From Flectonema sp. DT1601 (Eukaryota): a stretch of DNA of 64,000 nt. The notes under the pieces were generated by a model that had not been told where the DNA came from, did not search any database, and was given only the letters and a program-made list of their open reading frames with translations. The DNA lies in NCBI GenBank assembly GCA_964019425.1, contig OZ025784.1, positions 620,001-684,000 of the forward strand. The letters are read 5' to 3'. Positions 28,258 to 61,407 of this stretch are shown piece by piece (within the stretch, counting starts at the first letter, position 1; every line of letters begins with the position of its first letter). Position numbers and translations under genes: made by a program.

Positions 28258-31200
28258 CTATTTAATTTCATTTAAATAAGTCGGATAATTGCCAACTGAC
28301 TGACCAGGTGGAGCTACTGCCTGCTGAGGCGGTGTTTTTGGTGGGATTCGAGGTGGTGCTGACGCCCCAATCGACGGTGTTTGTTGCTGCTCACCAGAGT
28401 CTGCGAAGAACCACTGACCTGTTTTTTCATCAAATCCGAATTTTTTATTTTTATCATCTGGTAGGATTGCTTGAGGGGTTTCATCATCTTCCTTTCGAGA
28501 CCAAAATGAAAATCCCCATCCAGATTTCCTTTTTGACTTTTGCATCTCTTCTGACAGGCTCTCAGCATTCGGAGTTGGTGAAGAAAGAGATCCGTCTTTT
28601 TTTTTCATAACTCCTTTTGTTGGTTTAGTAGCACCTCCTCCCCACAGTCGACTGATACCCCAACCACTACTTTTTGCTCCTTCTAAATGAAGCTTTGCTG
28701 ACTCTTTCAAATCATCCAATAGATGAAGAGCTCCAGGTGATAGGAGATTTTTGTGTTGCTCAACAGCTGTGATGGTAGACATACATGTTTCGTATTGTCC
28801 GTGTTCGAATAGCCACATTGCGAATGCTAATCGATATGGGTGTAAGTGATTCATCTGAAATGGTTTCTTTAATTGTTGTGTTATCGATCCATTCTGTTGC
28901 ATAAAGCCTTCAAGTAATTCAGTTTGAATAACACTTTGAGGACGAACAAAAGCAGATCTACAAACAGGTCCCTGATGAGTTCCCCCCAACAAGATTGGTA
29001 GTAACTGAAGACTTCTAACACCCCATCTTGCGATAATACATAATGCACAAAAATGAGAGGCGTCAATCTCACCCAAATGAAGTAGTTTTTCCATCAATGA
29101 AGAGATGACTTGAGTTGTAAATTGTCCCATAGGCAGTTTCAGTATTGCGAGTAGAATGGATTTCCAACCCGTATCTTTTGATACATCAATACTATCCATG
29201 TGATCAATTGGGTTTATCTCTTGACCAACAAGTAACGCATGAAATAATGGTGATTGTGAACAAAGTGACTTCGCGTGTTCCAACTGAACAGATTTCCATG
29301 CATCTTGATCAGTACAAGCAGCTATAGCCATTGCTGTACTAAATTCTTTATTTGCTACCGCAAATGGTATAGCTTCTTGGGGAGTCGCAAGCAATAACAA
29401 TCTCTGGACAGTTCTTAAAGTTTCTTCACGTTTGTGGTCTTCAACACGACGATTTTGTTCTCTTTTAAGAGCGCGTTGAAGTCGTTCTTCGGTTGACAAC
29501 TGTTGATCATCTTCCAAACCCGTAGGAATAGGATGATCTACCATAGGACTCTGTAGATCACCAACAACTATTTCATTAAGTAACGCAGTTATATAGGGTC
29601 CCCAATGCTGTTGGTCCCAAGAATACGAATTCGACGCGTAATAATTCAAAATGCTCTGAAGCGGTCCGAATGCCGGGAAACCAGAAATATAAGCGGAGAC
29701 CACCTCTTTCGACGAGTTCGTCAGATTCGCAGGTCGGTCAGTCAGGACGCTATATTCTGCTGGACCATTATCGACACCGTGATAACCAAATACATCATCA
29801 AATGGAATGATTGAAACAGAACTTCCATTTTCAGATTTTTTGTTCAAATTTGCGATTATCAACTTTCCCGCAGTAAACGAGATCGGACATCCTCTTTTAA
29901 CGGGCATTGCCGCATAATCTCCACCCCCTGGAGAATATTGGTGAGATACTTCAGTAGGTGAGACCGACTGTTCGATGTCTGTTTTTGGTTTTGAATTCAC
30001 CGGATCAACAGGTTGTTCTTCTACCCTACTATACTGTTCTTCCTGTTGTTGTTGTTGTTGTGGTTGTTGTTGCTGTTGCTGTTGTTGGTACTGCTGTAGT
30101 AATGACTCGTAAGTCTGATACTCTAATGGTTTATCCCAAACACTTTCATTAGTAAGTTGATTATAGTAATAAAGTTGTCCAGAATCTGGAACCACCAACT
30201 CAACCCAATTAGTTGATGGAAGTTGTGATGCCATCGGAGACTGCGGTAGAACTTCACAAGATCCCTGACTAAATGTTCTAAACGGATCATCAACACTTGG
30301 CTGCTTAAGTAGAATATCATCAACTTCATAATCAGGTTTTCTATCATCAGTTAGTTCATTACTAACTTCAGGTTCTAATTCTATTTTAGGTGCTAAGAAT
30401 GGGTCCACTTCACCAGGTGCTGATTCTACTTCACCAGGTGGGCTTACATCACCAGGTGCTGGGTTTACGTCACCAGGTGTTGGGTTTACGTCACCAGGTG
30501 CTGGGTTTACGTCATCAGGTGAGTCATCTGTTATTTGTTCATCAGGTTTACTTGACTCCTGTTTCGGTTGTTCTGTCACAACTTCTTTCTGAGTATCGTT
30601 GTCAGAAACCTGCTGTGGTGGTGCTGAGTCAGTTTGTTTAATTTCATCAGACGCCACAGCTTCAGGTAAGCTCCGGTCAGTTGGCGGATCGTATTTCGAA
30701 TTCTCGAGTAAGTCTTCATCACAGTCAGAGAAAGATCCAAAACTTTTGAATGAATCAGTCCCTTCCTCTACACCTGTAGTGTCTTGTGGCTCTTCTACAC
30801 CCGTAATGTCTTCTGGTTCATCTTGTTTAGGGTGGTCTGGTTCTTGGTTGGGTATTTCTTGTTCTTGATCGGAGTGATTGGAATGCTCTTCTGTTTTTGA
30901 TACATCCTCAATCACATCAGTTTCTGTAACCTCTTCTGTTACTTCTGGTGCTGGTACTGGTGCTGTCGGTGGTGTTGGCGCTAATGGTGGTGTTGGTGCT
31001 GATACTGTCGGTGGCGTTGGTGCTGATACTGTCGGTGGTGTTGGTGAAGGAGCTCGTTTTGGCTTCGGTAGTGGTGCCCCAAAAGCATCCAACTCAACGT
31101 CATCGTCTTCAGGCTGCTCATTGCCGGCTGACATCGGCTCTGATTGACTTCTGTCTAGATGACTTTCTGACTGGCTAAGATGTAATCCAGTGAGTACATC

Positions 31201-33840
31201 CTTTTGACTTTCCACGCGTTGAATTTGACTACTCGAGTTTCCAAATTCCGCGGAATGCGGTCCTGCTGATGGTGTAATCGGTGGGAGGGGACCCAGTTCC
31301 GACATTTTCGAACTCAACTCCATTGTGTGAAGAGCATCTACTGCACTCTCTTGATGATCCAAAGGTGTTCCGGTTGATGGTTTTGATTTGATAATCTCAC
31401 CACTGAAAGGATCAACAACATCATCACTTGAAGCTATCAGTTCTTGTTCTTGTTGTTGTTTTACTTCCCACTCCTCAGTAGGATTTCTTAAATCAGAATT
31501 ACTAACTTCTTGAGATGGGAACGGATTAGTTTGTTCCTCCTCTTTGCTATCATTGGACTGCAGAGGCTGAGGTGCAAAGGGATCGATCTGCTCTGATACA
31601 ACTTCACCATCAGTGCCTGACTGCAGAGGTTGATTTCCATCTTCCTGTTGACCAGCAAAAGGATCGGCCTCAGCCTTTTCCAATGTGAGTTCATTATCAA
31701 TTTGGGACTGCGAAGGTTGGATGTCGTTACTCTGTTGTTCAGCAAAAGGATCGACTTCAGCATTTCCTGATGAGAGTTTATTTTCAACAAGTAGAGGTTG
31801 CTGCTGATCACCAAGAGGATCAGTATTTAGATTTAAGCAATCTCCCGATTGCTGTGACGCAAAAGGATCGGCGTCACCGTGCCCTGGCGCGAGTTCATTG
31901 TTAGGGATTGACTGCGTAAGTTGACTTTCATCATTCTGCTGACCAGCAAAAGGATCATCCTGAGGCTGCTGCAGCGAAAAGGAATCCATTGCACTCTGCC
32001 CTGACACAATTTCGTTTTCAGCGTCGGGCTGCGGAGGTTGATCTTCATCATCTTGCTGACCAGCAAAAGGATCGACTTCAGCATTTCCTGATGTGAGTTG
32101 GTTATCGGTACTACCTGAATGTGGAGGTTGGCTTTCATCACTTTCCTGACCAGCAAAGGGATCGGCCGTGAGATCCGAAGTTTCTTCTGGCTGCGAGGCA
32201 AAAGGATCGATATCACTCTGTCCCGATGCGAGTTTGTTTTCGGTGTTGGACTGCGATGTCTCATTCTGCTGACCAGCAAAGGGATCGGCCGTGAGATCCG
32301 AAGTTTCTTCTGGCTGCGAGGCAAAAGGATCGATATCACTCTGTCCCGATGCGAGTTTGTTTTCGGTGTTGGACTGCGATGTCTCATTCTGCTGACCAGC
32401 AAAGGGATCGGCCGTGAGATCCGAAGTTTCTTCTGGCTGCGAGGCAAAAGGATCGATATCACTCTGTCCCGATGCGAGTTTGTTTTCGGTGTTGGACTGC
32501 GATGTCTCATTCTGCTGACCAGCAAAGGGATCGGCCGCCAGATTTGAGGTCTCCCCCGGTTGTTGTGACGCAAAAGGATCGACATCACCCTGTCCTGATG
32601 TGAGTTCATTGCTGAGAGTTGACTGCGGAGGGTCATTCTGCTGATCAGCAAAGGGATCGGCCGTGAGATCCGAAGTTTCTTCTGGCTGTGAGGCAAAGGG
32701 ATCCACCTGTTCCGATGCGAGTTTGTTTTCGATGTCATTCAGTTGACCAGCAAAAGGATCGGCCGCGAGATTTGAGGTCTCCTCCGGTTCCTGTGACGCA
32801 AAAGGATCGACATCACCCTGTCCCGATGTGAGTTCATTGCTGAGAATTGACTGCGGAGGTTGATTTAAATCACCTTGTTGGACAGTAAATGGATCAGCCA
32901 CAGTATCTTCTGATCGCTTAGACTCGACTACATTCCTTTGGTTATCAGATGGGTTAAGCTGTTCAGTGTTTGGATGAACATTAAAAGGATCGACTTCATG
33001 TCCTTCTAGTTCTTGAGGTATAATATCTTGTTGTGAAGTAATCGGATTTAAAGTATTTTGAGGAGTTGTGGATGTGAAGGGATCGCCTTCCTGAGACGCA
33101 AACACTTCTTGAGCTAACGAAGGTCTTCTCTGAGATGAAAATAGATCATCGGGATCACTAGCTGTGGGATGTTGTTGTATAAATGAATCTGTTTCTGACT
33201 CACGAGTACTGACCTGACCAGTGAACGGGTCATTAGTCTCTGGTGGTTGAGTAGTGTCTTTATCACCATTTATAGTGGAGACAAATGGTTGGGGATCTGA
33301 AAAGATATCGTCGTCGGGTTGTGGTTGTTTTGATTCGATGGCCGATTTATATTTATCATCACTCTGCTCCCAGAAACTATCACTGAAATCACTTCCTGTT
33401 GTAATGTTGTTAGAGTTACGACTAACTATGAAATCATCACTAGGAGGGGGTGCGCCATCAAGTACGCGACGCTTAACTGTCGACTCGTCATGAGTGAAGT
33501 GGGATTCATTAGTAGTTATGGAAGCCGCTACTTGTTTTGAAACAACAGCAGACGAGTCAAAATAATCGGTTTGAATATGTTCACTTAAATCTGCTTCACG
33601 AACACCAACAGCAGTAATCGCAGCATCTGCAAACCACGCGAATCTTCCATCATCAAATTTCAGTCTGCAACTTGAATCCACCGGGTCAATTTCACTTATT
33701 TCTGCTTCACAGCCACATCGTTTTTCTTTCGATCGGCTCCAAGTTCCTAATTTGTTGCACAAATCTTTAACAACTACCGGATCTGATAATACTCTTACTT
33801 TACATCCTACAACTAACCCTTGGTACCCCCCTTCCGGCAT
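28258..33840 (-). CDS. SEC16: COPII scaffold Sec16-like protein with N-terminal SH3-like domain, DPF-rich region and WW domain
   Basis: Central conserved-domain motifs (EIDASHFC, LLGG, QTELLE, LHPYRLAFAMWLFEHG) and the C-terminal signature ILPDDKNKKFGFDEKTGQW followed by a Pro-rich tail. WW domain WVELVVPDSGQLYYYNQLTNESVWDKP. First in-frame ATG is 33840. Confidence 0.82.
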   Translation of the reverse strand: MPEGGYQGLVVGCKVRVLSDPVVVKDLCNKLGTWSRSKEKRCGCEAEISEIDPVDSSCRLKFDDGRFAWFADAAITAVGVREADLSEHIQTDYFDSSAVVSKQVAASITTNESHFTHDESTVKRRVLDGAPPPSDDFIVSRNSNNITTGSDFSDSFWEQSDDKYKSAIESKQPQPDDDIFSDPQPFVSTINGDKDTTQPPETNDPFTGQVSTRESETDSFIQQHPTASDPDDLFSSQRRPSLAQEVFASQEGDPFTSTTPQNTLNPITSQQDIIPQELEGHEVDPFNVHPNTEQLNPSDNQRNVVESKRSEDTVADPFTVQQGDLNQPPQSILSNELTSGQGDVDPFASQEPEETSNLAADPFAGQLNDIENKLASEQVDPFASQPEETSDLTADPFADQQNDPPQSTLSNELTSGQGDVDPFASQQPGETSNLAADPFAGQQNETSQSNTENKLASGQSDIDPFASQPEETSDLTADPFAGQQNETSQSNTENKLASGQSDIDPFASQPEETSDLTADPFAGQQNETSQSNTENKLASGQSDIDPFASQPEETSDLTADPFAGQESDESQPPHSGSTDNQLTSGNAEVDPFAGQQDDEDQPPQPDAENEIVSGQSAMDSFSLQQPQDDPFAGQQNDESQLTQSIPNNELAPGHGDADPFASQQSGDCLNLNTDPLGDQQQPLLVENKLSSGNAEVDPFAEQQSNDIQPSQSQIDNELTLEKAEADPFAGQQEDGNQPLQSGTDGEVVSEQIDPFAPQPLQSNDSKEEEQTNPFPSQEVSNSDLRNPTEEWEVKQQQEQELIASSDDVVDPFSGEIIKSKPSTGTPLDHQESAVDALHTMELSSKMSELGPLPPITPSAGPHSAEFGNSSSQIQRVESQKDVLTGLHLSQSESHLDRSQSEPMSAGNEQPEDDDVELDAFGAPLPKPKRAPSPTPPTVSAPTPPTVSAPTPPLAPTPPTAPVPAPEVTEEVTETDVIEDVSKTEEHSNHSDQEQEIPNQEPDHPKQDEPEDITGVEEPQDTTGVEEGTDSFKSFGSFSDCDEDLLENSKYDPPTDRSLPEAVASDEIKQTDSAPPQQVSDNDTQKEVVTEQPKQESSKPDEQITDDSPDDVNPAPGDVNPTPGDVNPAPGDVSPPGEVESAPGEVDPFLAPKIELEPEVSNELTDDRKPDYEVDDILLKQPSVDDPFRTFSQGSCEVLPQSPMASQLPSTNWVELVVPDSGQLYYYNQLTNESVWDKPLEYQTYESLLQQYQQQQQQQQPQQQQQQEEQYSRVEEQPVDPVNSKPKTDIEQSVSPTEVSHQYSPGGGDYAAMPVKRGCPISFTAGKLIIANLNKKSENGSSVSIIPFDDVFGYHGVDNGPAEYSVLTDRPANLTNSSKEVVSAYISGFPAFGPLQSILNYYASNSYSWDQQHWGPYITALLNEIVVGDLQSPMVDHPIPTGLEDDQQLSTEERLQRALKREQNRRVEDHKREETLRTVQRLLLLATPQEAIPFAVANKEFSTAMAIAACTDQDAWKSVQLEHAKSLCSQSPLFHALLVGQEINPIDHMDSIDVSKDTGWKSILLAILKLPMGQFTTQVISSLMEKLLHLGEIDASHFCALCIIARWGVRSLQLLPILLGGTHQGPVCRSAFVRPQSVIQTELLEGFMQQNGSITQQLKKPFQMNHLHPYRLAFAMWLFEHGQYETCMSTITAVEQHKNLLSPGALHLLDDLKESAKLHLEGAKSSGWGISRLWGGGATKPTKGVMKKKDGSLSSPTPNAESLSEEMQKSKRKSGWGFSFWSRKEDDETPQAILPDDKNKKFGFDEKTGQWFFADSGEQQQTPSIGASAPPRIPPKTPPQQAVAPPGQSVGNYPTYLNEIK
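32146..32514 (-). repeat. Coding tandem repeat, 3 near-identical 123-bp units (41 aa, two DPF motifs each), with degenerate flanking units
   Basis: The unit start ctgaccagcaaagggatcggcc recurs at 32146, 32269, 32392 and 32515. Confidence 0.95.
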
Positions 33841-34102
33841 GTAATTGCTTTCAGACACCTGGTTTTGAAGTAAAGTCAGATATAATCAGTCTTACCTAGT
33901 TATCGACAGACATTGTGGCTCTGTAGAAATAAGAAGTGATTGTTGTGTGAAAAAAAATACAATGAGTCGTTTATTTTTTTCTTAAAATTCCTTTGAATGA
34001 TATATATTTTTTTTGATAACGAAAAGAAACTGACCAACTAAATAATAAAAAATTAACATCGAGTGAGAAACTACGAAACATAATTAATTCTGCAGAGCAG
34101 TA

Positions 34103-34625
34103 CTAAGAGTGAGCCATCCAAGTTTCTTCACACTTTGTACAGGTGTAGAATTGTGTCTGTCCTTCATCAGCACCTCTCGTCTGTTTACTGTAGTAAGTAC
34201 ACTTTGTACGGTCTTTGCAGTTAGCGCAGTATTCCATTATTGTATCCATCACTGTGGATGATTTCTTTGCTTTGGCTGTATTTTTTGTGTTTTTTTTTTT
34301 TTTATGTTGCTGCCTGTCCAGATAAAACAAAAAAAAACATACCTCCAGACGCAACATTCTGTAACCAATCTAGACCAATACGAACACTCGGATCGTTCGA
34401 TATCACTGGCGTCCCTTCATCGGATCGCTTCTTTCTCTTTTTATCACCTTCTGGATGTGGTAATCTTTTAACATTATTAATAATAGGAATGAGATCATAA
34501 TTTCTTCCACAAGACACACACATAACGTCAGTACCTTCTGGAGGGTACATTGATAACGGATATCCACAGTCGTCTATAGGACAATACAAGTGATCCCATT
34601 TTCTAATTGGAGCGACAGCTGCCAT
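34103..34625 (-). CDS. RPA12: RNA polymerase I subunit RPA12; 2 exons
   Basis: N-terminal Zn ribbon (CPIDDC...CVSC). Intron 34342-34276 (GTATGT...TACAG) joins two track ORFs. The C-terminal TFIIS-like ribbon QTRGADEGQTQFYTCTKC has ADEG, typical of RPA12 rather than RPC11 (ADEP). Confidence 0.85.
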
Positions 34626-34756
34626 GTTGCTGTTGCTTACTGAGATGAAGATGTATAAAAAAAAAATAGTAACTTAACTGAGTAAGGGAGAAAAACTATT
34701 GAACACGATACGTTTTGTAATGGGGAACGTTTTCTTATAAAATACACGAGTCTCGT

Positions 34757-35212
34757 CTATTGCTTTACTTCTCTTACATGAGATAAATACATAAGAGAAC
34801 ATAGGCTTCCCTTTGAGGATGCCTCTTCAAGATCAGTAGTGGTTGCCCACTTCCAACGTTGGTATTGAGTGACATTAGGAACGTCTTGCGGAGTCTTTAT
34901 CATGTTGTGATCAGGAACAGATACTTCAAATTGCTTCATTCGAAGAATGTAATCTTTCCTTTCCTTGTCATCTGTTGACAACACTTTCTCAATTGTTAGA
35001 TCGACTCCTAGTTTTTGCCTTCCCGACAACAGCACTGAATCCTCCCAACTTCTTTCATCAGGACAATGCATACCTGCAGGAAGTCCCCACGCGTTTGGCA
35101 GATCTGCATCATTTGTAGGTCTCTGAACAGACACAAACTCTCGTTCACATTCAGAGTTTTCCTTATTCTTATAAATCACATACGACACTGCATATTTAAT
35201 TGGAAGACTCAT
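34757..35212 (-). CDS. Nudix-fold protein with degenerate Nudix box
   Basis: VQRP..D..LPNAWGLPAG...E.SWEDSVLLSGRQKLGV aligns to the Nudix box, but the REUXEE glutamates are missing. Confidence 0.75.
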   Translation of the reverse strand: MSLPIKYAVSYVIYKNKENSECEREFVSVQRPTNDADLPNAWGLPAGMHCPDERSWEDSVLLSGRQKLGVDLTIEKVLSTDDKERKDYILRMKQFEVSVPDHNMIKTPQDVPNVTQYQRWKWATTTDLEEASSKGSLCSLMYLSHVREVKQ

Positions 35213-35615
35213 GTTGGTGTAACCTGTTTAGATAAAACATATTAACATGTCAATTGTTAATTTCAATGAAACAGTTTCACATCACGAAAGGCAAGTAGCG
35301 AACCTATAACTGGAGAAACACTTGTTTGCATCGCTAGGCAAATCAGAGCGTGTTATGTGAGAAATAAATATCCTCCGGTAAACGAAACAAATATGTTAAA
35401 CCAAACTAAATAGATGAAAAAAAGTTTTTACTTTTAAAAAAAAAAAAAAAAAAGATTTCCGAACGTACTTTAACATCAACCATTAATTACAATCCCTTCA
35501 TTTAACACAGTTGTACCTATTTAAAGAGGTACAAGTCAATACTTTCTTACTAATTATTCGTGCGATAGGTGACTACTAGTCATCTATATAAATTACATCA
35601 AATACATTAATCTTT

Positions 35616-38600
35616 CTACTGCCGACCTCGACCTGTTTTAATTGTTGTTAACAAAACTCAAAAAAACATTTTCATTACTAAAACAACAGGAACAGCAACA
35701 AGAAAGTATACTTCAGCCAGGGATAACTGTCATTTCGGAGTATAATCAATAACTGATTTCATAAGGGGAAAGAAGTGGTTTTTCATCATATGTATTTATG
35801 GAACAGGTGATCAACAGCAACAGCAATAAGAAAGTATACTTCAGCCAGGGATAACTGTCATTTCGGAGTATAATCAATAAATGATTTCATAAGGGGAAAG
35901 AAGTGGTTTTTCATCATATGTATTTATGGAACAGGTGATCAACTGCAACAGCAACAGCAATAAGAATGTTTACTTCAGCCAGGGATAACTGTCATTTCGG
36001 AGTATAATCAATAAATGATTTCATAAGGGGAAAGAAGTGGTTTTTCATCATATGTATTTATGGAACAGGTGATCAACAGCAACAGCAATAAGAAAGTATA
36101 CTTCAGCCAGGGATAACTGTCATTTCGGAGTATAATCAATAAATGATTTCATAAGGGGAAAGAAGTGGTTTTTCATCATATGTATTTATGGAACAGGTGA
36201 TCAACAGCAACAGCAATAAGAAAGTATACTTCAGCCAGGGATAACTGTCATTTCGGAGTATAATCAATAACTGATTTCATAAGGGGAAAGAAGTGGTTTT
36301 TCATCATATGTATTTATGGAACAGGTGATCAACAGCAACAGCAACAAGAAAGTATACTTCAGCCAGGGATAACTGTCATTTCGGAGTATAATCAATAAAT
36401 GATTTCATAAGGGGAAAGAAGTGGTTTTTCATCATATGTATTTATGGAACAGGTGATCAACTGCAACAGCAACAGCAATAAGAATGTTTACTTCAGCCAG
36501 GGATAACTGTCATTTCGGAGTATAATCAATAAATGATTTCATAAGGGGAAAGAAGTGGTTTTTCATCATATGTATTTATGGAACAGGTGATCAACAGCAA
36601 CAGCAACAAGAAAGTATACTTCAGCCAGGGATAACTGTCATTTCGGAGTATAATCAATAACTGATTTCATAAGGGGAAAGAAGTGGTTTTTCATCATATG
36701 TATTTATGGAACAGGTGATCAACAGCAACAGCAACAAGAAAGTATACTTCAGCCAGGGATAACTGTCATTTCGGAGTATAATCAATAAATGATTTCATAA
36801 GGGGAAAGAAGTGGTTTTTCATCATATGTATTTATGGAACAGGTGATCAACAGCAACAGCAACAAGAAAGTATACTTCAGCCAGGGATAACTGTCATTTC
36901 GGAGTATAATCAATAACTGATTTCATAAGGGGAAAGAAGTGGTTTTTCATCATATGTATTTATGGAACAGGTGATCAACAGCAACAGCAATAAGAATGTT
37001 TACTTCAGCCAGGGATAACTGTCATTTCGGAGTATAATCAATAAATGATTTCATAAGGGGAAAGAAGTGGTTTTTCATCATATGTATTTATGGAACAGGT
37101 GATCAACAGCAACAGCAACAAGAAAGTATACTTCAGCCAGGGATAACTGTCATTTCGGAGTATAATCAATAAATGATTTCATAAGGGGAAAGAAGTGGTT
37201 TTTCATCATATGTATTTATGGAACAGGTGATCAACTGCAACAGCAACAGCAATAAGAATGTTTACTTCAGCCAGGGATAACTGTCATTTCGGAGTATAAT
37301 CAATAAATGATTTCATAAGGGGAAAGAAGTGGTTTTTCATCATATGTATTTATGGAACAGGTGATCAACAGCAACAGCAACAAGAAAGTATACTTCAGCC
37401 AGGGATAACTGTCATTTCGGAGTATAATCAATAAATGATTTCATAAGGGGAAAGAAGTGGTTTTTCATCATATGTATTTATGGAACAGGTGATCAACTGC
37501 AACAGCAACAGCAATAAGAATGTTTACTTCAGCCAGGGATAACTGTCATTTCGGAGTATAATCAATAAATGATTTCATAAGGGGAAAGAAGTGGTTTTTC
37601 ATCATATGTATTTATGGAACAGGTGATCAACTGCAACAGCAACAGCAATAAGAATGTTTACTTCAGCCAGGGATAACTGTCATTTCGGAGTATAATCAAT
37701 AAATGATTTCATAAGGGGAAAGAAGTGGTTTTTCATCATATGTATTTATGGAACAGGTGATCAACTGCAACAGCAACAGCAATAAGAATGTTTACTTCAG
37801 CCAGGGATAACTGTCATTTCGGAGTATAATCAATAAATGATTTCATAAGGGGAAAGAAGTGGTTTTTCATCATATGTATTTATGGAACAGGTGATCAACA
37901 GCAACAGCAACAAGAAAGTATACTTCAGCCAGGGATAACTGTCATTTCGGAGTATAATCAATAAATGATTTCATAAGGGGAAAGAAGTGGTTTTTCATCA
38001 TATGTATTTATGGAACAGGTGATCAACTGCAACAGCAACAGCAATAAGAATGTTTACTTCAGCCAGGGATAACTGTCATTTCGGAGTATAATCAATAAAT
38101 GATTTCATAAGGGGAAAGAAGTGGTTTTTCATCATATGTATTTATGGAACAGGTGATCAACAGCAACAGCAACAAGAAAGTATACTTCAGCCAGGGATAA
38201 CTGTCATTTCGGAGTATAATCAATAACTGATTTCATAAGGGGAAAGAAGTGGTTTTTCATCATATGTATTTATGGAACAGGTGATCAACAGCAACAGCAA
38301 CAAGAAAGTATACTTCAGCCAGGGATAACTGTCATTTCGGAGTATAATCAATAAATGATTTCATAAGGGGAAAGAAGTGGTTTTTCATCATATGTATTTA
38401 TGGAACAGGTGATCAACAGCAACAGCAATAAGAATGTTTACTTCAGCCAGGGATAACTGTCATTTCGGAGTATAATCAATAAATGATTTCATAAGGGGAA
38501 AGAAGTGGTTTTTCATCATATGTATTTATGGAACAGGTGATCAACAGCAACAGCAACAAGAAAGTATACTTCAGCCAGGGATAACTGTCATTTCGGAGTA

Positions 38601-41600
38601 TAATCAATAACTGATTTCATAAGGGGAAAGAAGTGGTTTTTCATCATATGTATTTATGGAACAGGTGATCAACAGCAACAGCAACAAGAAAGTATACTTC
38701 AGCCAGGGATAACTGTCATTTCGGAGTATAATCAATAACTGATTTCATAAGGGGAAAGAAGTGGTTTTTCATCATATGTATTTATGGAACAGGTGATCAA
38801 CAGCAACAGCAACAAGAAAGTATACTTCAGCCAGGGATAACTGTCATTTCGGAGTATAATCAATAAATGATTTCATAAGGGGAAAGAAGTGGTTTTTCAT
38901 CATATGTATTTATGGAACAGGTGATCAACAGCAACAGCAATAAGAAAGTATACTTCAGCCAGGGATAACTGTCATTTCGGAGTATAATCAATAAATGATT
39001 TCATAAGGGGAAAGAAGTGGTTTTTCATCATATGTATTTATGGAACAGGTGATCAACAGCAACAGCAATAAGAAAGTATACTTCAGCCAGGGATAACTGT
39101 CATTTCGGAGTATAATCAATAACTGATTTCATAAGGGGAAAGAAGTGGTTTTTCATCATATGTATTTATGGAACAGGTGATCAACAGCAACAGCAATAAG
39201 AAAGTATACTTCAGCCAGGGATAACTGTCATTTCGGAGTATAATCAATAACTGATTTCATAAGGGGAAAGAAGTGGTTTTTCATCATATGTATTTATGGA
39301 ACAGGTGATCAACAGCAACAGCAACAAGAAAGTATACTTCAGCCAGGGATAACTGTCATTTCGGAGTATAATCAATAAATGATTTCATAAGGGGAAAGAA
39401 GTGGTTTTTCATCATATGTATTTATGGAACAGGTGATCAACAGCAACAGCAACAAGAAAGTATACTTCAGCCAGGGATAACTGTCATTTCGGAGTATAAT
39501 CAATAAATGATTTCATAAGGGGAAAGAAGTGGTTTTTCATCATATGTATTTATGGAACAGGTGATCAACAGCAACAGCAATAAGAAAGTATACTTCAGCC
39601 AGGGATAACTGTCATTTCGGAGTATAATCAATAAATGATTTCATAAGGGGAAAGAAGTGGTTTTTCATCATATGTATTTATGGAACAGGTGATCAACAGT
39701 AACAGCAATAAGAAAGTATACTTCAGCCAGGGATAACTGTCATTTCGGAGTATAATCAATAACTGATTTCATAAGGGGAAAGAAGTGGTTTTTCATCATA
39801 TGTATTTATGGAACAGGTGATCAACAGCAACAGCAACAAGAAAGTATACTTCAGCCAGGGATAACTGTCATTTCGGAGTATAATCAATAACTGATTTCAT
39901 AAGGGGAAAGAAGTGGTTTTTCATCATATGTATTTATGGAACAGGTGATCAACAGCAACAGCAACAAGAAAGTATACTTCAGCCAGGGATAACTGTCATT
40001 TCGGAGTATAATCAATAAATGATTTCATAAGGGGAAAGAAGTGGTTTTTCATCATATGTATTTATGGAACAGGTGATCAACAGCAACAGCAATAAGAAAG
40101 TATACTTCAGCCAGGGATAACTGTCATTTCGGAGTATAATCAATAAATGATTTCATAAGGGGAAAGAAGTGGTTTTTCATCATATGTATTTATGGAACAG
40201 GTGATCAACAGCAACAGCAATAAGAATGTTTACTTCAGCCAGGGATAACTGTCATTTCGGAGTATAATCAATAAATGATTTCATAAGGGGAAAGAAGTGG
40301 TTTTTCATCATATGTATTTATGGAACAGGTGATCAACAGCAACAGCAACAAGAAAGTATACTTCAGCCAGGGATAACTGTCATTTCGGAGTATAATCAAT
40401 AACTGATTTCATAAGGGGAAAGAAGTGGTTTTTCATCATATGTATTTATGGAACAGGTGATCAACTGCAACAGCAACAAGAAAGTATACTTCAGCCAGGG
40501 ATAACTGTCATTTCGGAGTATAATCAATAAATGATTTCATAAGGGGAAAGAAGTGGTTTTTCATCATATGTATTTATGGAACAGGTGATCAACAGCAACA
40601 GCAATAAGAATGTTTACTTCAGCCAGGGATAACTGTCATTTCGGAGTATAATCAATAAATGATTTCATAAGGGGAAAGAAGTGGTTTTTCATCATATGTA
40701 TTTATGGAACAGGTGATCAACAGCAACAGCAACAAGAAAGTATACTTCAGCCAGGGATAACTGTCATGTCGGAGTATAATCAATAACTGATTTCATAAGG
40801 GGAAAGAAGTGGTTTTTCATCATATGTATTTATGGAACAGGTGATCAACTGCAACAGCAACAAGAAAGTATACTTCAGCCAGGGATAACTGTCATTTCGG
40901 AGTATAATCAATAAATGATTTCATAAGGGGAAAGAAGTGGTTTTTCATCATATGTATTTATGGAACAGGTGATCAACAGCAACAGCAATAAGAAAGTATA
41001 CTTCAGCCAGGGATAACTGTCATTTCGGAGTATAATCAATAAATGATTTCATAAGGGGAAAGAAGTGGTTTTTCATCATATGTATTTATGGAACAGGTGA
41101 TCAACAGCAACAGCAATAAGAAAGTATACTTCAGCCAGGGATAACTGTCATTTCGGAGTATAATCAATAACTGATTTCATAAGGGGAAAGAAGTGGTTTT
41201 TCATCATATGTATTTATGGAACAGGTGATCAACAGCAACAGCAACAAGAAAGTATACTTCAGCCAGGGATAACTGTCATTTCGGAGTATAATCAATAAAT
41301 GATTTCATAAGGGGAAAGAAGTGGTTTTTCATCATATGTATTTATGGAACAGGTGATCAACAGCAACAGCAATAAGAATGTTTACTTCAGCCAGGGATAA
41401 CTGTCATTTCGGAGTATAATCAATAAATGATTTCATAAGGGGAAAGAAGTGGTTTTTCATCATATGTATTTATGGAACAGGTGATCAACAGCAACAGCAA
41501 CAAGAAAGTATACTTCAGCCAGGGATAACTGTCATTTCGGAGTATAATCAATAAATGATTTCATAAGGGGAAAGAAGTGGTTTTTCATCATATGTATTTA

Positions 41601-43585
41601 TGGAACAGGTGATCAACAGCAACAGCAACAAGAAAGTATACTTCAGCCAGGGATAACTGTCATTTCGGAGTATAATCAATAAATGATTTCATAAGGGGAA
41701 AGAAGTGGTTTTTCATCATATGTATTTATGGAACAGGTGATCAACAGCAACAGCAATAAGAATGTTTACTTCAGCCAGGGATAACTGTCATTTCGGAGTA
41801 TAATCAATAAATGATTTCATAAGGGGAAAGAAGTGGTTTTTCATCATATGTATTTATGGAACAGGTGATCAACAGCAACAGCAACAAGAAAGTATACTTC
41901 AGCCAGGGATAACTGTCATTTCGGAGTATAATCAATAACTGATTTCATAAGGGGAAAGAAGTGGTTTTTCATCATATGTATTTATGGAACAGGTGATCAA
42001 CTGCAACAGCAACAGCAATAAGAATGTTTACTTCAGCCAGGGATAACTGTCATTTCGGAGTATAATCAATAACTGATTTCATAAGGGGAAAGAAGTGGTT
42101 TTTCATCATATGTATTTATGGAACAGGTGATCAACAGCAACAGCAACAAGAAAGTATACTTCAGCCAGGGATAACTGTCATTTCGGAGTATAATCAATAA
42201 CTGATTTCATAAGGGGAAAGAAGTGGTTTTTCATCATATGTATTTATGGAACAGGTGATCAACTGCAACAGCAACAAGAAAGTATACTTCAGCCAGGGAT
42301 AACTGTCATTTCGGAGTATAATCAATAACTGATTTCATAAGGGGAAAGAAGTGGTTTTTCATCATATGTATTTATGGAACAGGTGATCAACTGCAACAGC
42401 AACAAGAAAGTATACTTCAGCCAGGGATAACTGTCATTTCGGAGTATAATCAATAACTGATTTCATAAGGGGAAAGAAGTGGTTTTTCATCATATAAATT
42501 AAAAAGAAACTTTGATGCGAAAGAAGCACACCTTTGCCTCCGCGGCCGCCGCGATTGCCACCTCCTCCACGTTCAGAGCGAGAACCTCCCTTGCGTGATG
42601 GAGCAGAATTAGATTGCGCGTTATGATTATTAATATTGGCGTTGTTGTTGTTATTATTATTATTGTTGTTGTTGTCGTTGATTATTGGATTATTAATGTT
42701 ATTACTGGTGTTGTTGTTTTTGTTGTTAATAGCAGAGGAGGTGGACTCAGGTGATTGCCTGTTAGGCTTTCTCATATCATCAGGTTGGTTCTTAACTTTA
42801 ACTTGAATCTTAGTTGGGAGTGGTGCCTTATCTTTTTCTTTATCTCTGTCCTCTTTATCTCTATCGTGGCGGTCTCTTTCTCTGTTATCCCTGTCGCGGT
42901 CGCGTTTCCTGTCTTTACCTCCACGAGAGATGACTCCTCCTCCACCTCGTCCTCCAGATTTGTGACCTCCTCTTCCTTTTTCAGATTTAATTTGAAGACC
43001 TCGTCTGTGTCTGCCACCTCTTCTATTGGTTGCGTTAGGACCCCATAGGTAATCTTTGACCGCCTCTGTTAGCGGTGTTTCTGTTGCTTTTGGTTTACTC
43101 TTTTCATCTTTTTTATTAGCCAACCAGGCATCCAGAGCTTCTTCTTTTGGAGTTGGTGGTGCTGGAGCTTCTCGCTGAGCTTTCCAAGCAAGAAAGTCTT
43201 CATCTTCATGAATGGTGTTGAGAAGTGAATCATCGTGTTGTTTTGATGTGGAAGGAATTTGATGATTTGGTGCGAACTCAACTGTAACCTTACTGGTGTA
43301 ACCTTTACTGTCGGTGAATGATCGTCCATCAAATTGCTCATGAAACCTTCTGACGTACTCAATTTTTGAAAACACAACAGAAGCAAAACTAGGAACTAAT
43401 TTCATTCGAGATAGTTTACCTTTTTCGTAATGCAGCCAGGCAACTTCGGATAAAATTTCCTCTCCAACATTTTCTTTTACAATTTGTAAAAACCCGTCTT
43501 CAGTTAAATTCCACGGCAGGTGTCGAACTACAATTTTTTGTTTCTTTTCAAACCATCTGGTCATTTTGACTTTTTTATCGTCCAT
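35616..43585 (-). CDS. UPF3: Nonsense-mediated decay factor UPF3 (Smg4); 2 exons separated by a 6,899-nt snoRNA-filled intron
   Basis: UPF3 RRM-like domain KIVVRHLPWNLTE...FDGRSFTDSKG...VEFAPNHQIP, ETPL motif and basic/RGG tail. Donor AAAG|GTGTGC at 42531 and acceptor TAAAACAG|GT at 35633 give ...RGGRGGKG-RGRQ* (TAG 35618-35616), in frame and continuing the RGG tail. Confidence 0.85.
35708..35795 (-). ncRNA. Box C/D snoRNA, dual guide for LSU rRNA (representative 3'-most copy of 53)
   Basis: Minus strand: ATAC-AT-[C]ATGATGA-AAAACCA-CTTCTTTCCCC-TT-[D']ATGA-AATCAGTTA-[C']TTGATTA-TACTCCGAAATGA-CAGTTATCCCTG-G-[D]CTGA-A-GTAT. Terminal stem ATAC/GTAT. The 12-nt and 11-nt guides match conserved LSU rRNA CAGGGAUAACUG and GGGGAAAGAAG. 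Confidence 0.92.
42412..42495 (-). ncRNA. Box C/D snoRNA, 5'-most copy of the array (C box 38 nt downstream of the UPF3 donor)
   Basis: C box 42493-42487 and D box 42420-42417. Array similarity ends just upstream of the C box, so the boundary coincides with the snoRNA 5' end. Confidence 0.9.
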
Positions 43586-44383
43586 TTTTTTTTTTTTTTT
43601 TTCCCCCAAAGTTTTTTTTTTTTCTGAGAATAAAGAGAGAATGATACCTAACTTTTTGCCTATCTAGAACCACGTCAATAATATGATCAACTTCCTAACT
43701 TTCTAGTTAGCACAATAGCTACAGTTCATGTAATCCAATGTTGCTTTATATTACGAGTGTCTTAGGAAGGAAACTCACAGCAACAGAGAAACCTGTCGGA
43801 AACAATGAGAAGAAAATATTTTTCATCAAAATTTAAAACAGATCGAACTTCGTACTTTTTTTTTTTTTTTTTCAAAAACGTTATTTTATTTTAATTTTTT
43901 TTTCTTAAAATAAATAAAAAAAAAAAACTGAAAAAACAAACAGAACAGAAGAATAAAGGACAACAATTAAAAAAAATAATTTATATGAAAAAAAATACAA
44001 CGATGCAACTCAAAACAATAAGTAGCAAATGGAAAAAAGAAAAGAAAAAAAAAGAAATCTACAAAAAGAATGGTTACAGTACCAGGGATTGACATCCCCT
44101 ATTTTTGGTAAAGAAAAAAAAAAGGATATAAACACAAGTAAACACCCTTTCAACTTATTTTGGATGAAAACCCTACATCGTTCACAACGAATCATCTTTT
44201 TCTGAGGCCACCTGATGACTATCTAGAGCCCGCTAGGATTATGGAGAGACGATGAATTAAAAAGATTATTTCAATTCATCAGTCTGGAGAGAGGAAACAC
44301 GAGTGCGTGAAATACACAACACATAGATTACAACATATCAGTCTGGATAATTGCTGTGGAGAAGTCGGCCTACCAACAGCTGC

Positions 44384-44414
<31 letters not shown>

Positions 44415-46039
44415 CCTAGACGATATATTGATATCCTACTGTATCTTTATTTATTATTGCAAACAAGATACAAGTCAGTATTTATCGAAAAAGACATGAG
44501 CAGTTTGTGTGCTGAATGCCCGTCATACAATCAAACAAGTTGAACACGTACGAACAGCCTTAAAAATGTGTCTGAAGGAAAACCACTAACAATCCCCTCA
44601 CTGATGATATTTTGTTGTTGTTGTCTCGCAATTTTTTTTTTTTTTTTTTTTTTTGCACATACAAGAGACATGACTACGTCGTCCCCAATCTTACGGACCA
44701 TCAGCTTTCTGAGTAAGACAAAGATACAAAGGAAAGAATAAGAGAAAGATAACTTCTCACTTAAAATAAGCAAGCGAGGGATAACGACATTAAGATTCAG
44801 TTTGGACGGTTTTCATATTTTATTTTTATTTTATTTTTTTTTCTCGAAAAAACATTATTGCTTCTTGAAAAAAAAAAAAAAAAAGGCAATCAGCGAAATT
44901 AATATTCCCCCAACATAGTAAAGGGAATGCGGCAATCGGCGAAATGAAAAAGAGCAGTTTTTCGCAACCACATTCCCATGTACTGGTTTAAACCATGCCC
45001 AATAATTATACACGAATCGAACATCAGATGGAAAGAAGGGAGATTATAAGAAGATAATAAAAATAAAAAAAATAAAAAGAACAACACATCACACAAATTA
45101 AAATAATTAAGTCAAGTAATTGGTTTGTTTTCACAGTATTGATGAAAATGCTTACCATTTTTTGTGGATCTTTTTTTTTTGAATTCGTGAAAAAAAAACT
45201 AAACTTTTTTTTTGTATAATATAGATGTGTTATCGAATAAAAAGAGGTTTAAAAAATAAATTTAAAAAAAAAAAAAAAAAAGTTTACAACCCATTCAGCT
45301 AAGGGGAGATAAATTCCCCGCTGGGGCCAACAACAACAACCAACACCAATATCAGCAAACGAGACTATTTAAAGACAAGTTTGGGTCCACCGCATACAAC
45401 ATAACACCACCCCTCTAGGAGTTGGCACATAAAGTAGTGCAAAAATGCATGGTATCCCGGTTAGACAGTAGTAACGTCTTATATACAAAAAAAAGGGGTA
45501 TTTCCCATTGTTCATACAGTTGAATATTGCTAACAACAAACAACAAAAAAAGAAAAAACTACGGAACGGTATTCTCACATTACACTCGATGAAGAAGAAA
45601 ATATAACCTCGAATATTATTATTTTTTTTTTTCAGAAAAAAAAATCTAAAAAATAAGGAAAGAAAGGAGAACCTCACAATTAGATAACAACTGATAAATA
45701 CAACTCAAGAAAAATAAAATATAAAAAGAAAAAAGGAGAAAAGAAATACATCTTCTTCACAACACAACAGCTACGATACAATAAAGAGATCGATTCGTTG
45801 AAAGAAATTCATCGACTGTCAAATCTTCACTTCAAGAACATAATCAGAACTAAACAATTAAAGCATTCGTCTTACAGTATTTAAAGCAACACAAAGGAGT
45901 ACTTCTTACATTATAACATCGTCCTTGTGGATCATCACTCCGGCAGCGTTTTTGATTTCACGCCAGCGCGTGCACACATACCTTTTGAACAGTAGTGTTC
46001 ACAGGTAAATAACAAGTCAACAGAATTACCTTACAACAC

Positions 46040-59491: not shown

Positions 59492-61407
59492 TCACGTATT
59501 AAAAATTATTAGGTTTACAGTCATATTATCAGTTCCTTCTCCGTTCTCTTCAATCGTAGGAGAAATACAATGGTCTAAGAGCAATGAACAAGCTTCTTTG
59601 GGAGAAGTTGTTTTTAAAGCAGCAGACAAGAAATCAACAACTTCTTGATCAGACATGCAGTCCCATATTCCATCACAGGCTTGAACAATGAAGTTATCTT
59701 CGGGGGTGAGTTGACGATATTCTATTGCTGGACAACAAGTAACAGCCTGGCCATCTGGTCCTAACCCTCCAGCTTGTTTGAAATCAAAATCACCTAAAGC
59801 CCTACTCACAGCTAGCATTCCTTCAACCCTGCCTTCACCACACACTCTACTACCGCTATTTAAAATTCTAGTCCTTTCTCTTGGAGAGTCAGGTTTATGG
59901 TCGTTTGAGAGTCGATCAGCTATACCATTTCGTGACATTACAGCCTGATTGATTTTTTTTTTTTTTGCCTAATAAGTTCTTTTAGTAATAAATAAAAAAC
60001 ACACCCTTGAATCACCAGAGTTTGCGATAACTACCAACGAATCACAGATAACTATGCTATTTACGGTTGTTCCAGTCGAACCATTATGTTCTGTAGAGAG
60101 AGTCTGTTGGATGACCTCATCAGTGTTGAGAAACGCTTTAGTTAACGCTGTTGCGATACTGTCTGGACTCGATAAATCTATTTGTTTTTTTTTTATTATA
60201 AATTGATATCCTGCGTTTATCAAGCAAGAGGGAGGGGGGCTTGGATAAATAAATCAAGGGGTTAACACGCAACATATTAGACATGAATCCTGTCCACACA
60301 AAATCGCATGCTTTAAATAAACTACCAGAAAAGGGAAAGGGAGAAAGTTGTTTAATTCATACCGGCATCCTTAAGATGGATATCAATATTATTATGCAGG
60401 TGATTGCCAACGAAATCAGCAACTTTCCAGCCACCATGACCATCGTACACACCAAAGTGGTTGACAGATGGATGACTTGGGAGAGGAATAGAAACATTGT
60501 GCGAGTCTTCGTTACTAGACCTCCATCCTTGCATAGTAATTGAAGTACAAGATAGTTTAGATGATTGTTGGTGTTCAATATGTTTATCAGTGACAGCTTC
60601 TTGCATGAATCCTCCTTTAGTTCTAAACAAAGGATCAAGTATAGCAGCAAAGTGTTCTGTTTCTTCATATGTCGCGAACCGATTATGCTGGTAGTCCCAC
60701 GCAGCTTCATCTCCCAGCTCATAGCAAATTGCAACTTTCTCTACCGGATTAGAATTAAAATGCTTCTGCGCTTCGATTAGGCAAAAAGATTTTTTTGATC
60801 GAGGGAAATATCTCTGTGCTGGTCTCTTTCCTGTTATGCAACAAGAGTAGAAAAGTGAGTGAAAATCGACATCTTCATCTTCCTCGTTTGGAGGAGGTGT
60901 ATAAGATCTGCGTAACTCTTCAGCAGTAAGTGGTTCATCAGATGTTGGAAGCAGTCGAGGAGGTTGCTCAGGAGAAGCAGATCTACTCCTTGGAATGGGA
61001 CTCGAACACGGACTTCCATCACCCCTGTTGGGATCATTTCTTAAAGTAGTAAAAGATCTCGCTCTGGCTGCTCGTTTCTTTTGAACAACAGGATTCGCTT
61101 CAACTACTTCAGTCATACCCGATGTTTGTTTCTCTGGTGTTGTCATCGATTCAGTCTGTGAAATACCTTTTACAGGTTGTAATTTAACAGTTAAGAACCC
61201 TCTCTCTTCATCATCATAGGGAGGGTTGACCATTGAGGTTACACTACACACTTCACTGTAATCACTTTTTAATTGTGTGATTGCTAACGCAACTGTGCTG
61301 ACATATTTACCAGCGCCGTGAACCTCAACTTCCTCACCTTGTCGAAGTTTTTCAAGGCAAGTTTCGACCACCTTCGGTGAGTTGAATTCCGTACATTCCA
61401 CTCTCAT
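59492..61407 (-). CDS. Protein phosphatase 2C (PPM family) with long N-terminal extension; 3 exons
   Basis: MQGWRSSNEDSH, FGVYDGHGG, ANSGDSR|AV, DHKP, LAVSRALGDF, ACDGIWD, GTDNMT. Introns 60362-60178 (GTATGA..TAG) and 60004-59945 (GTGTGT..CAG) restore the frame. Confidence 0.92.

What the first reader, a model, noticed from the sequence alone, without database searches (positions are those of the whole stretch)
35633..42531. Apparent satellite is a 53-copy homopolymeric snoRNA array filling the last intron of UPF3
Seen: 53 head-to-tail 128/134-bp units. On the gene strand each has a C box (ATGATGA), D' (ATGA), C' (TTGATTA) and D (CTGA); most also have a short terminal stem. The array is bounded by a GT donor (42531) and an A-rich CAG acceptor (35633) that splice UPF3 in frame to GRGRQ*. 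Established: intronic snoRNAs are usually one per intron, and trypanosomatid and Euglena snoRNA clusters are repeated but typically mix different snoRNAs. Inference: one UPF3 transcript could release up to 53 copies of a single snoRNA, an intron-encoded dosage amplifier. I know of no described equivalent at this copy number. A repeat masker would hide it.
Basis: partly seen in the sequence, partly recalled or inferred. Interest (0 to 1): 0.93.

Follow-up and report, generated by a model that had tools for sequence, protein, structure and literature searches.

The report
53-copy snoRNA array in one intron
A stretch that looks like satellite DNA, inside the likely last intron of a marine flagellate's UPF3 gene, is 53 near-identical head-to-tail copies of a predicted small nucleolar RNA whose two guides match the catalytic region of ribosomal RNA, so one transcript would likely yield many copies of one guide RNA: a known gene layout at an unusual scale.

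Summary
Window 35684-42495 holds 53 units of 128/134 bp, each with C, D', C' and D boxes on the UPF3 strand.

New here: each unit has two guides matching eukaryotic LSU rRNA domain V (11 and 12 bp). The fifth-nucleotide rule points to yeast-equivalent G2395 (snR190/SNORD12/snR107 site) and G2815 (snR38 site). Trypanosoma brucei carries these guides on two separate snoRNAs.

Homologs place the organism among diplonemids. The intron is supported indirectly. A transcript-derived Flectonema UPF3 ends like the spliced product, not the read-through, and the splice sites resemble five other candidate introns in the window. None of 48 box/guide positions varies, against 8 variable sites among 80 others (p=0.025).

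No RNA data were available, so splicing, expression, release of individual copies and true copy number are untested. The spacer has no hairpin that would explain cleavage. Intronic snoRNA clusters are known in plants, flies and algae, and unchecked scan notes report 20-26-fold cassettes in Euglena introns. This is a new variant of a known kind; an adaptive 'dosage amplifier' is not shown.

The parts
42532..43585 (-). UPF3 coding exon 1 (Met1 to Lys351 plus one base)
   Evidence: Open frame; Pfam PF03467 E 2.8e-34, residues 14-177; 67% identical to Flectonema neradi UPF3
35633..42531 (-). Inferred last cis-intron of UPF3, 6,899 nt, phase 1, GT...AG
   Evidence: In-frame join; spliced C-terminus fits the transcript-derived ortholog; splice sites like other candidate introns of the window. 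Not seen in RNA.
35684..42495 (-). Tandem array of 53 units (128/134 bp), each a 77-nt box C/D core plus a 51/57-nt U/G-rich spacer
42417..42493 (-). First snoRNA core (C 42493-42487, D' 42466-42463, C' 42453-42447, D 42420-42417); begins 38 nt after the donor and lacks the terminal stem
42469..42479 (-). D' guide of copy 1 (11 nt, identical in all 53): complementary to LSU helix 73, predicted target equivalent to yeast G2395
   Evidence: Rfam SNORD12 E 0.011, below gathering; 11-bp duplex; 2 of 3000 shuffles
42422..42433 (-). D guide of copy 1 (12 nt, identical in all 53): complementary to LSU domain V, predicted target equivalent to yeast Gm2815
   Evidence: Rfam snoR38 E 0.011, below gathering; 12-bp duplex; 2 of 3000 shuffles
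35713..35789 (-). Last (53rd) snoRNA core; D box ends 80 nt before the acceptor, about 64 nt before the putative branch A
   Evidence: distances counted from the sequence
35633..35651 (-). Putative branch site (TTAAC, 35651-35647) and A-rich acceptor ending in CAG
   Evidence: Same design as the USP7 intron-1 acceptor; branch assignment is inference
35616..35632 (-). Coding part of inferred last exon: GRGRQ-stop
43793..43824 (-). Pyrimidine-rich AG upstream of the UPF3 start codon, putative trans-splice (or 5' UTR) acceptor
   Evidence: 80% pyrimidine in the 20 nt before the AG; inference

Best explanation
The 53 repeats carry the boxes and two rRNA-complementary guides of one box C/D snoRNA, and they likely fill the last intron of UPF3, from which splicing, debranching, cutting between units and trimming would release many ~87-nt copies predicted to guide 2'-O-methylation of two guanosines at the peptidyl-transferase region of the large-subunit rRNA. 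Shown by sequence: units, boxes, guides, register, host gene. Inferred: (1) the intron is spliced; (2) it began as an ordinary ~195-nt intron with one snoRNA 80 nt before the acceptor (38-nt lead + 77-nt core + 80-nt tail; the other candidate introns are 60-185 nt); (3) the snoRNA plus spacer was amplified in tandem and is kept uniform by unequal exchange or gene conversion; (4) internal copies are freed by the endonucleolytic route that euglenozoans use for polycistronic snoRNA precursors, whose enzyme is unidentified even in T. brucei; (5) the targets are methylated.
For: The two best-E-value Rfam matches of one unit are snoR38 (D guide) and SNORD12 (D' guide), E 0.011 each, and the same two families come up for the last unit. 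The guides pair with eukaryotic LSU rRNA over 11 and 12 bp with a G opposite position -5 in 16 of 16 loci printed; 4 of 4 loci tested are LSU_rRNA_eukarya. Shuffled guides reached these lengths on a 1,243-nt LSU fragment 2 and 2 times in 3000, both together 0 times. T. brucei snoRNAs TB9Cs2C7 and TB11Cs1C2 carry the same guide words in the same register. The complete transcript-derived Flectonema UPF3 ends in a short G/R/K tail and aligns better to the spliced end (score 89) than to the read-through end (55). The acceptor is A-rich (50% A) like five candidate cis-introns (55-80% A), unlike three of four putative trans-acceptors (10-15% A); a GTGTG donor also occurs in the PP2C gene. Of 15 kinds of in-frame-tested acceptor in the segment only 35633 gives a G/R tail. 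0 of 48 box/guide-span positions vary, against 8 variable sites among 80 others, Fisher p=0.025. Four of ten pairs of common variants show all four gametes, as exchange between units would give. T. brucei snoRNA clusters are cut from polycistronic precursors by an unknown endonuclease (PMC3273796, passages).
Against: No RNA evidence of any kind was obtained. Neither Rfam match reaches gathering (26.9 of 45 and 22.8 of 43 bits). The LSU loci are contaminant rDNA of other eukaryotes, selected by the guide words themselves; the organism's own rRNA was not available. Three units fold no better than shuffles (z=+0.95), so no RNase III-type stem is evident. The conservation contrast is weak: core against spacer gives p=0.058, and linked variants are not independent. 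The ortholog test rests on one protein with a low-complexity tail. The fourth putative trans-acceptor (35224) is intermediate (35% A, 60% pyrimidine) and the UPF3 acceptor is 45% pyrimidine, so the two classes are not cleanly separated; the comparison introns were picked by eye and are unvalidated. In budding yeast the G2395-type guide does not methylate (PMC8536666). The stored gene model is the unspliced read-through.
Confidence: 0.6

Rival explanations
1. The intron and snoRNA are real, but the expansion is a neutral recent amplification with little extra output: only the last copy (near the branch point) or the two end copies mature efficiently, and the rest is degraded or stays as a long RNA capped by snoRNPs at both ends, like the sno-lncRNAs of the SNORD116 locus.
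For: No spacer hairpin. In vertebrates C/D assembly is favoured about 50 nt upstream of the branch point (PMC8162545, passage), and only copy 53 lies near there (about 64 nt). Units differ by only 2.0 substitutions on average, as a recent expansion would give. D. papillatum has many tandem repeats beside and inside genes (PMC10161547, passages). sno-lncRNAs arise when two snoRNAs share an intron.
Against: No box or guide position varies in any copy while spacers do (p=0.025). Kinetoplastids and Euglena process polycistronic snoRNA precursors, so the machinery is likely present in diplonemids.
Confidence: 0.22
2. There is no cis-intron. UPF3 stops at 42434 inside copy 1, and the array is a kinetoplastid-style polycistronic snoRNA cluster in the 3' UTR or intergenic part of the transcription unit, freed by polyadenylation, trans-splicing and cleavage.
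For: The frame reads through to a stop at 42434, and this 383-aa form is the stored protein. T. brucei snoRNA precursors are trans-spliced and polyadenylated and can lie in 3' UTRs. 12 of 52 spacers have a U/G-rich tract ending in CAG.
Against: The read-through adds a 31-residue hydrophobic tail that neither of the two homologs has, and it would translate the snoRNA itself. The Flectonema protein ends as the spliced form does. The 35633 acceptor looks like the window's cis-acceptors, and the next gene has its own AG at 35224.
Confidence: 0.1
3. The copy number is inflated by assembly; the genome has one or a few intronic copies.
For: No raw reads of the source were available to check.
Against: The gene lies on a 1.37-Mb contig, which suggests long reads able to span 6.8 kb. 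Units show five shared substitutions, one shared 6-bp indel, only two singleton changes and no homopolymer indels, in a non-periodic order. Assemblers usually collapse tandem arrays rather than expand them (general knowledge).
Confidence: 0.06
4. Ordinary satellite DNA whose resemblance to a snoRNA is chance.
For: No Rfam hit at gathering level.
Against: Four boxes in order plus two conserved rRNA guides in the correct register on the host-gene strand; 0 of 3000 shuffles match at both guides.
Confidence: 0.02

Closest known systems
Intronic snoRNA clusters of plants, Chlamydomonas, Drosophila, Ostreococcus and Plasmodium (PMC2875012, PMC3089462, PMC7671301, PMC2656528: passages read; Chen et al. 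2008 Genetics seen only as a reference title)
   Same: Several snoRNAs, sometimes copies of one family, inside one intron of a protein-coding gene, processed from a polycistronic precursor.
   Different: The clusters in the passages I read hold 2-3 copies per intron (also 3 snoR38-type guides in contigs L001-L005); this one has 53 near-identical copies at a strict period. The Chlamydomonas and Drosophila primary papers were not read, so their maximum counts are unchecked.
Repeated polycistronic snoRNA clusters of T. brucei (PMC3273796: passages and supplement file 2, parts 3-4 of 9) and Euglena gracilis (Moore and Russell 2012, seen only as cited in PMC7671301 and in scan notes)
   Same: Same phylum; tandem repetition; polycistronic precursor; the same two guide words exist in T. 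brucei.
   Different: T. brucei clusters mix different snoRNAs and are not in cis-introns; the column I read as copy number (header not seen) runs from 1 to 8. The two guides are on separate RNAs there (TB9Cs2C7, TB11Cs1C2).
snR190 / S. pombe snR107 / human SNORD12 (PMC8536666 and bioRxiv 10.1101/2024.10.03.615557: passages read)
   Same: D' guide complementary to helix 73 of LSU domain V in the same register; methylation shown in S. pombe and reported for human.
   Different: Their second antisense element pairs with domain I; here the second guide is snR38-type and pairs with domain V. The Rfam score is below gathering.
snR38 / snoR38 (Rfam RF00213); Plasmodium PFS7
   Same: The 12-nt guide and its distance to a CUGA box match the Rfam consensus; PFS7, listed against yeast LSU Gm2815, carries 11 nt of the same word.
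   Different: In the Rfam consensus the guide precedes D'; here it precedes D and shares the RNA with a SNORD12-type guide.
SNORD116/SNORD115 arrays and rat Bsr (PMC8162545: passages; Bsr seen as a reference title only)
   Same: Large tandem arrays of one C/D snoRNA.
   Different: There the copies sit in repeated introns of a non-coding host and SNORD116 is an orphan; here all copies share one intron of a protein-coding gene and have canonical rRNA guides.

Membership tests
Box C/D methylation-guide snoRNA | Terminal C (RUGAUGA) and D (CUGA) boxes 60-100 nt apart | tested here: met
   53 of 53 units, 77-nt core
Box C/D methylation-guide snoRNA | Internal D' and C' boxes | tested here: met
   ATGA (1 mismatch) and TTGATTA (2 mismatches), 9 nt apart, invariant; ATGA as D' is also reported in Plasmodium
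Box C/D methylation-guide snoRNA | 10-21-nt antisense element before D/D', target opposite the fifth nucleotide | tested here: met
   11 and 12 bp to eukaryotic LSU, G at -5 in both; shuffle control. Tested on other eukaryotes' rRNA only.
Box C/D methylation-guide snoRNA | Short terminal stem | tested here: met
   4 bp in 38, 3 bp in 14, none in 1 of 53
Box C/D methylation-guide snoRNA | Expressed as a discrete small RNA, bound by fibrillarin/Nop56/Nop58/Snu13, target methylated | not testable with these tools
   No RNA holder listed
Rfam snoR38 (RF00213) | Score at or above gathering (45 bits) | tested here: not met
   26.9 and 24.6 bits; shares the guide, not filed as a member
Rfam SNORD12 (RF00581) / snR190 / snR107 | Score at or above gathering (43 bits) | tested here: not met
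   22.8 and 18.4 bits
Rfam SNORD12 (RF00581) / snR190 / snR107 | Helix-73 guide before D' | tested here: met
Rfam SNORD12 (RF00581) / snR190 / snR107 | Second antisense element pairing with LSU domain I | tested here: not met
   The element before D is the snR38-type domain V guide; domain I sequence itself was not scanned
Intronic snoRNA cluster | Several snoRNA genes inside one spliceosomal intron on the host strand | tested here: inconclusive
   GT-AG bounds, frame, ortholog C-terminus and acceptor style all fit; no junction reads
Intronic snoRNA cluster | Precursor cut between units (RNase III-type stem or other signal) | tested here: inconclusive
   No spacer hairpin (z=+0.95); cleavage itself not testable
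SNORD115/116-type array | Each copy in its own intron of a non-coding host | tested here: not met
   No unit carries the A-rich acceptor of this organism's candidate introns, internal AGs give no UPF3-like tail, and the host codes for UPF3. Internal micro-exons are not excluded without RNA.
UPF3 (Pfam PF03467) | Smg4_UPF3 domain above cut-off | tested here: met
   119 bits against 24

The most novel reading that the evidence does not exclude
Diplonemids fused the snR38 and snR190/SNORD12 guides into one RNA that grips both ends of LSU domain V (helix 73 and the G2815 strand, about 420 nt apart) and so chaperones folding of the peptidyl-transferase centre. This lineage raises its supply about 50-fold by turning one UPF3 intron into a selected, homogenised snoRNA polymer cut by a hairpin-independent nuclease. 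With the unchecked Euglena notes, intronic tandem amplification would be a general euglenozoan way of setting snoRNA dose.
Probability: 0.2. Interest if true: 0.8.

Novelty: new variant of a known kind. Interest (0 to 1): 0.55.

Why it matters
(1) Real RNA genes can hide in what repeat maskers call satellite, and Rfam at gathering threshold misses this one entirely. (2) My searches found no description of modification-guide snoRNAs in diplonemids, an abundant marine group sister to trypanosomes. (3) A 53-mer of one unit with natural marker alleles is a clean substrate for finding how euglenozoans cut polycistronic snoRNA precursors, an enzyme that a 2011 T. brucei paper called unknown, and for asking whether copy number sets snoRNA level. 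(4) The double guide ties two conserved PTC-region sites that trypanosomes serve with separate RNAs.

Tried and rejected
Sequencing runs: no RNA holder listed; one run, X1, held 0.17 of the words. Laid on 42370-43900 it gave two 151-nt records inside the coding exon only, and on 32800-35810 nothing; this is no evidence either way, and the junction itself could not be tested with reads. A double-guide pattern in metagenome contigs gave 5 loci, all one plant-like locus where a chance TTTCCCC precedes a snoR38; no homolog of the double-guide RNA was found. Viral contigs gave 0 hits for two patterns. A profile search found no further UPF3 homologs beyond the same 3 proteins; the wider HMMER search did not run because the queue was full. 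A possible decayed copy near 44790 was rejected: 103 of 2531 tiles score as high, and nhmmer finds nothing below E 1.7. No other RNA gene was found upstream of UPF3 (one implausible bacterial hit), and no tRNA in the window. Higher-order repeat tests: repeated triplets of unit types 8 against 3.1 expected (p=0.009), but adjacent identity (p=0.59), quadruplets (p=0.32) and clustering of 134-bp units (p=0.15) were not significant, so this is only a weak hint. Diplonemid rDNA sequence was not in the supplements of PMC9082867, and the guide words were not in the supplement of PMC6411936. The script stopped at L022, so 16 of 18 LSU loci were scored. The first frame shown for PP2C intron 1 was wrong; one search shows an open frame at that junction and four alternative acceptors. 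Earlier findings: none for this genome or sequence, and none holding both 'diplonemid' and 'snoRNA'.
Full report
Observation. The minus strand of 35000-44500 was read directly. TRF reports one array at 35684-42495, period 128, 52.8 copies, 97% matches. A script counted 53 C boxes and 12 unit types; 44 of the 52 complete units are 128 bp and 8 are 134 bp. Every unit has a 77-nt core with C, D', C' and D boxes, in three variants (34, 18 and 1 copies). A 4-bp terminal stem is present in 38 units and a 3-bp stem in 14; the first unit has none.

Host gene and organism. The frame starting at 43585 matches Pfam Smg4_UPF3 (E 2.8e-34). Its only homologs found are a Flectonema neradi transcriptome protein (67% identity) and Diplonema papillatum UPF3 (55% over half the query). 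An NSA2 gene in the window also has diplonemids as its best hits (81-86% for the four named). The organism is therefore most likely a diplonemid (Euglenozoa). D. papillatum has mostly GT-AG introns, some very long, as well as trans-splicing (PMC10161547, passages).

Is it an intron? Joining 42532 to 35632 gives a 356-aa protein ending GRGRQ-stop; reading through gives 383 aa with a hydrophobic tail that runs into copy 1 and stops at 42434. The protein collection stores the read-through form, presumably from an automatic gene call. The complete Flectonema protein, predicted from a transcript, ends in a short G/K/R tail; its last 36 residues align with score 89 to the spliced end and 55 to the read-through end. 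D. papillatum UPF3 also ends in G/K/R residues. I picked five other candidate introns by eye in the USP7-like and PP2C genes (60-185 nt). All keep an open frame, and their acceptors are A-rich (55-80% A); the UPF3 acceptor has 50% A and a branch-like TTAAC at a similar distance to USP7 intron 1. Three of four putative trans-acceptors are pyrimidine-rich, and the fourth is intermediate. One PP2C donor starts GTGTG as here. This is consistent but indirect; no read crosses the junction.

What the unit is. Rfam finds nothing at gathering level in the window. With relaxed thresholds on one unit, the two best E-values among 16 matches are snoR38 and SNORD12 (0.011 each), each aligned on a different guide; the last unit gives the same two families. 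A pattern made of both guide complements retrieved 18 loci from prokaryote assemblies, evidently contaminant eukaryotic rDNA; 4 of 4 tested are LSU_rRNA_eukarya. In 16 of 16 loci scored the duplexes are 11 bp (D') and 12 bp (D), with a G opposite position -5 in both and the targets 416-436 nt apart. These loci match by construction, so the control matters: on a 1,243-nt LSU fragment, shuffled guides reached these lengths in 2 and 2 of 3000 trials and never together.

The targets. The D' target is the third G of the run in helix 73 (Rfam model position 2401 by my count), in the register of the SNORD12 consensus. This is the site predicted for yeast snR190 (G2395, not methylated in budding yeast; PMC8536666, passages) and methylated by S. 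pombe snR107 (bioRxiv 2024.10.03.615557, passages). The D target corresponds to yeast Gm2815: Plasmodium PFS7, with 11 nt of the same guide word, is listed against that site (PMC2656528, passages); the link of snR38 to Gm2815 is recalled. T. brucei has the two guide words on separate snoRNAs, TB9Cs2C7 and TB11Cs1C2 (PMC3273796, supplement file 2 searched whole and parts 3-4 read; file 1 not searched). I found no other RNA with both guides, but these searches barely cover eukaryotes.

How the array evolves. Among 52 complete units, seven positions and one 6-bp indel vary; the mean pairwise difference is 2.0 substitutions. None of the 48 box/guide-span positions varies, against 8 variable sites among 80 others (Fisher p=0.025); core against spacer gives p=0.058. 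Four of ten pairs of common variants show all four gametes, which points to exchange between units. There are no homopolymer indels and only two singleton changes. Together with the 1.37-Mb contig, this makes an assembly artefact unlikely, though raw reads were not available. Removing 52 periods leaves about 195 nt: a 38-nt lead, one core and an 80-nt tail, which is an ordinary single-snoRNA intron. I infer tandem amplification from that state.

How it likely works. The UPF3 pre-mRNA is spliced, the 6.9-kb lariat is debranched, core proteins bind each C/D motif, and the precursor is cut in the spacers and trimmed. Trimming from the ends alone would stop at the first and last snoRNP and leave one long RNA, so an internal cut is required. 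Three units fold no better than shuffles (z=+0.95), so there is no evident RNase III stem. T. brucei releases snoRNAs from polycistronic precursors with an unidentified endonuclease, and Euglena snoRNA genes are mainly in polycistronic clusters (as cited in PMC7671301 and PMC2784804), so the capacity probably exists in diplonemids. I put 0.6 on multi-copy release, 0.22 on a largely neutral expansion with few copies matured, 0.1 on a non-intronic cluster, 0.06 on assembly inflation and 0.02 on plain satellite. Whether higher dose is selected is open; one T. brucei paper reports that snoRNA level correlates with modification level (PMC6411936, passage).

Comparison with what is known. One snoRNA per intron is the vertebrate pattern, but intronic clusters are described for Arabidopsis (2-3 copies of a family), Drosophila, Ostreococcus and Plasmodium (passages), and for Chlamydomonas (title only). 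Contigs L001-L005 show three snoR38-type guides between two exons of an NDP-kinase-like gene (two of the three reach Rfam gathering; the gene label is my reading of the sequence). SNORD116 is a large array, but its copies sit in the introns of a non-coding host (PMC8162545, passages). Unchecked notes of this scan describe 20- and 26-copy multi-snoRNA cassettes in single Euglena introns and a six-copy H/ACA array in an RPL3 intron; I did not test them. Ten paper searches showed no single snoRNA at this copy number in one intron and no diplonemid guide snoRNA. The library lacks several key papers (Chlamydomonas 2008, Euglena 2012 and 2018, Leishmania 2015, Drosophila 2005; all recalled or seen as references only). 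The D. papillatum paper has no 'snoRNA' in its main text or in the 7 supplementary files searched, but I did not confirm that its Additional file 1, which covers structural RNAs, was among them. Supplements of bioRxiv preprints were closed.

Verdict. This is a real and well-formed array of a double-guide C/D snoRNA gene, probably intronic. It works like a plant- or Euglena-type polycistronic intronic cluster, taken to 53 copies of one gene. It is not filed as a member of Rfam snoR38 or SNORD12.

Noticed in passing
window 16611-18070 and 59945-60362, minus strand: Candidate cis-introns in this organism end in A-rich tracts (55-80% A) instead of polypyrimidine tracts, while most putative trans-splice acceptors are pyrimidine-rich; the two kinds of acceptor may be told apart by composition.
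   Followed up: partly
window 28258-33885, minus strand; repeat at 32146-32735: A 1,875-aa frame with Sec16 TPR and WW domains contains a 123-bp x 4.8 coding repeat.
   Followed up: no
window 12019-14979, minus strand: A 986-aa frame joins a CAF1-family ribonuclease domain with a weak CAP_C domain.
   Followed up: no
window 1-64000: All the frames with Pfam hits that I tested lie on the minus strand, as in a polycistronic unit; they include NSA2, USP7-like, caspase-family, tRNA synthetase, 2OG-Fe oxygenase, DOMON, PP2C and DUF4116.
   Followed up: no
window 42620-42728 and array spacers: The Asn-coding AAC repeats of UPF3 exon 1 are partly complementary to the GTTGCTGTTG run of each spacer; probably low-complexity coincidence.
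   Followed up: no
L001 2470-3114 (same locus in L002-L005): Plant-like contigs carry three snoR38-type guides in one apparent intron of an NDP-kinase-like gene; two reach Rfam gathering.
   Followed up: partly
L006-L023: Prokaryote genome assemblies hold eukaryotic LSU rDNA, mostly on short contigs (about 240 stretches estimated); L017 also has a group I intron. Probably contamination.
   Followed up: partly
window 43585-42434: The stored protein for this gene (P0002, 383 aa) reads into the first snoRNA copy and is probably mis-predicted at its C-terminus.
   Followed up: yes
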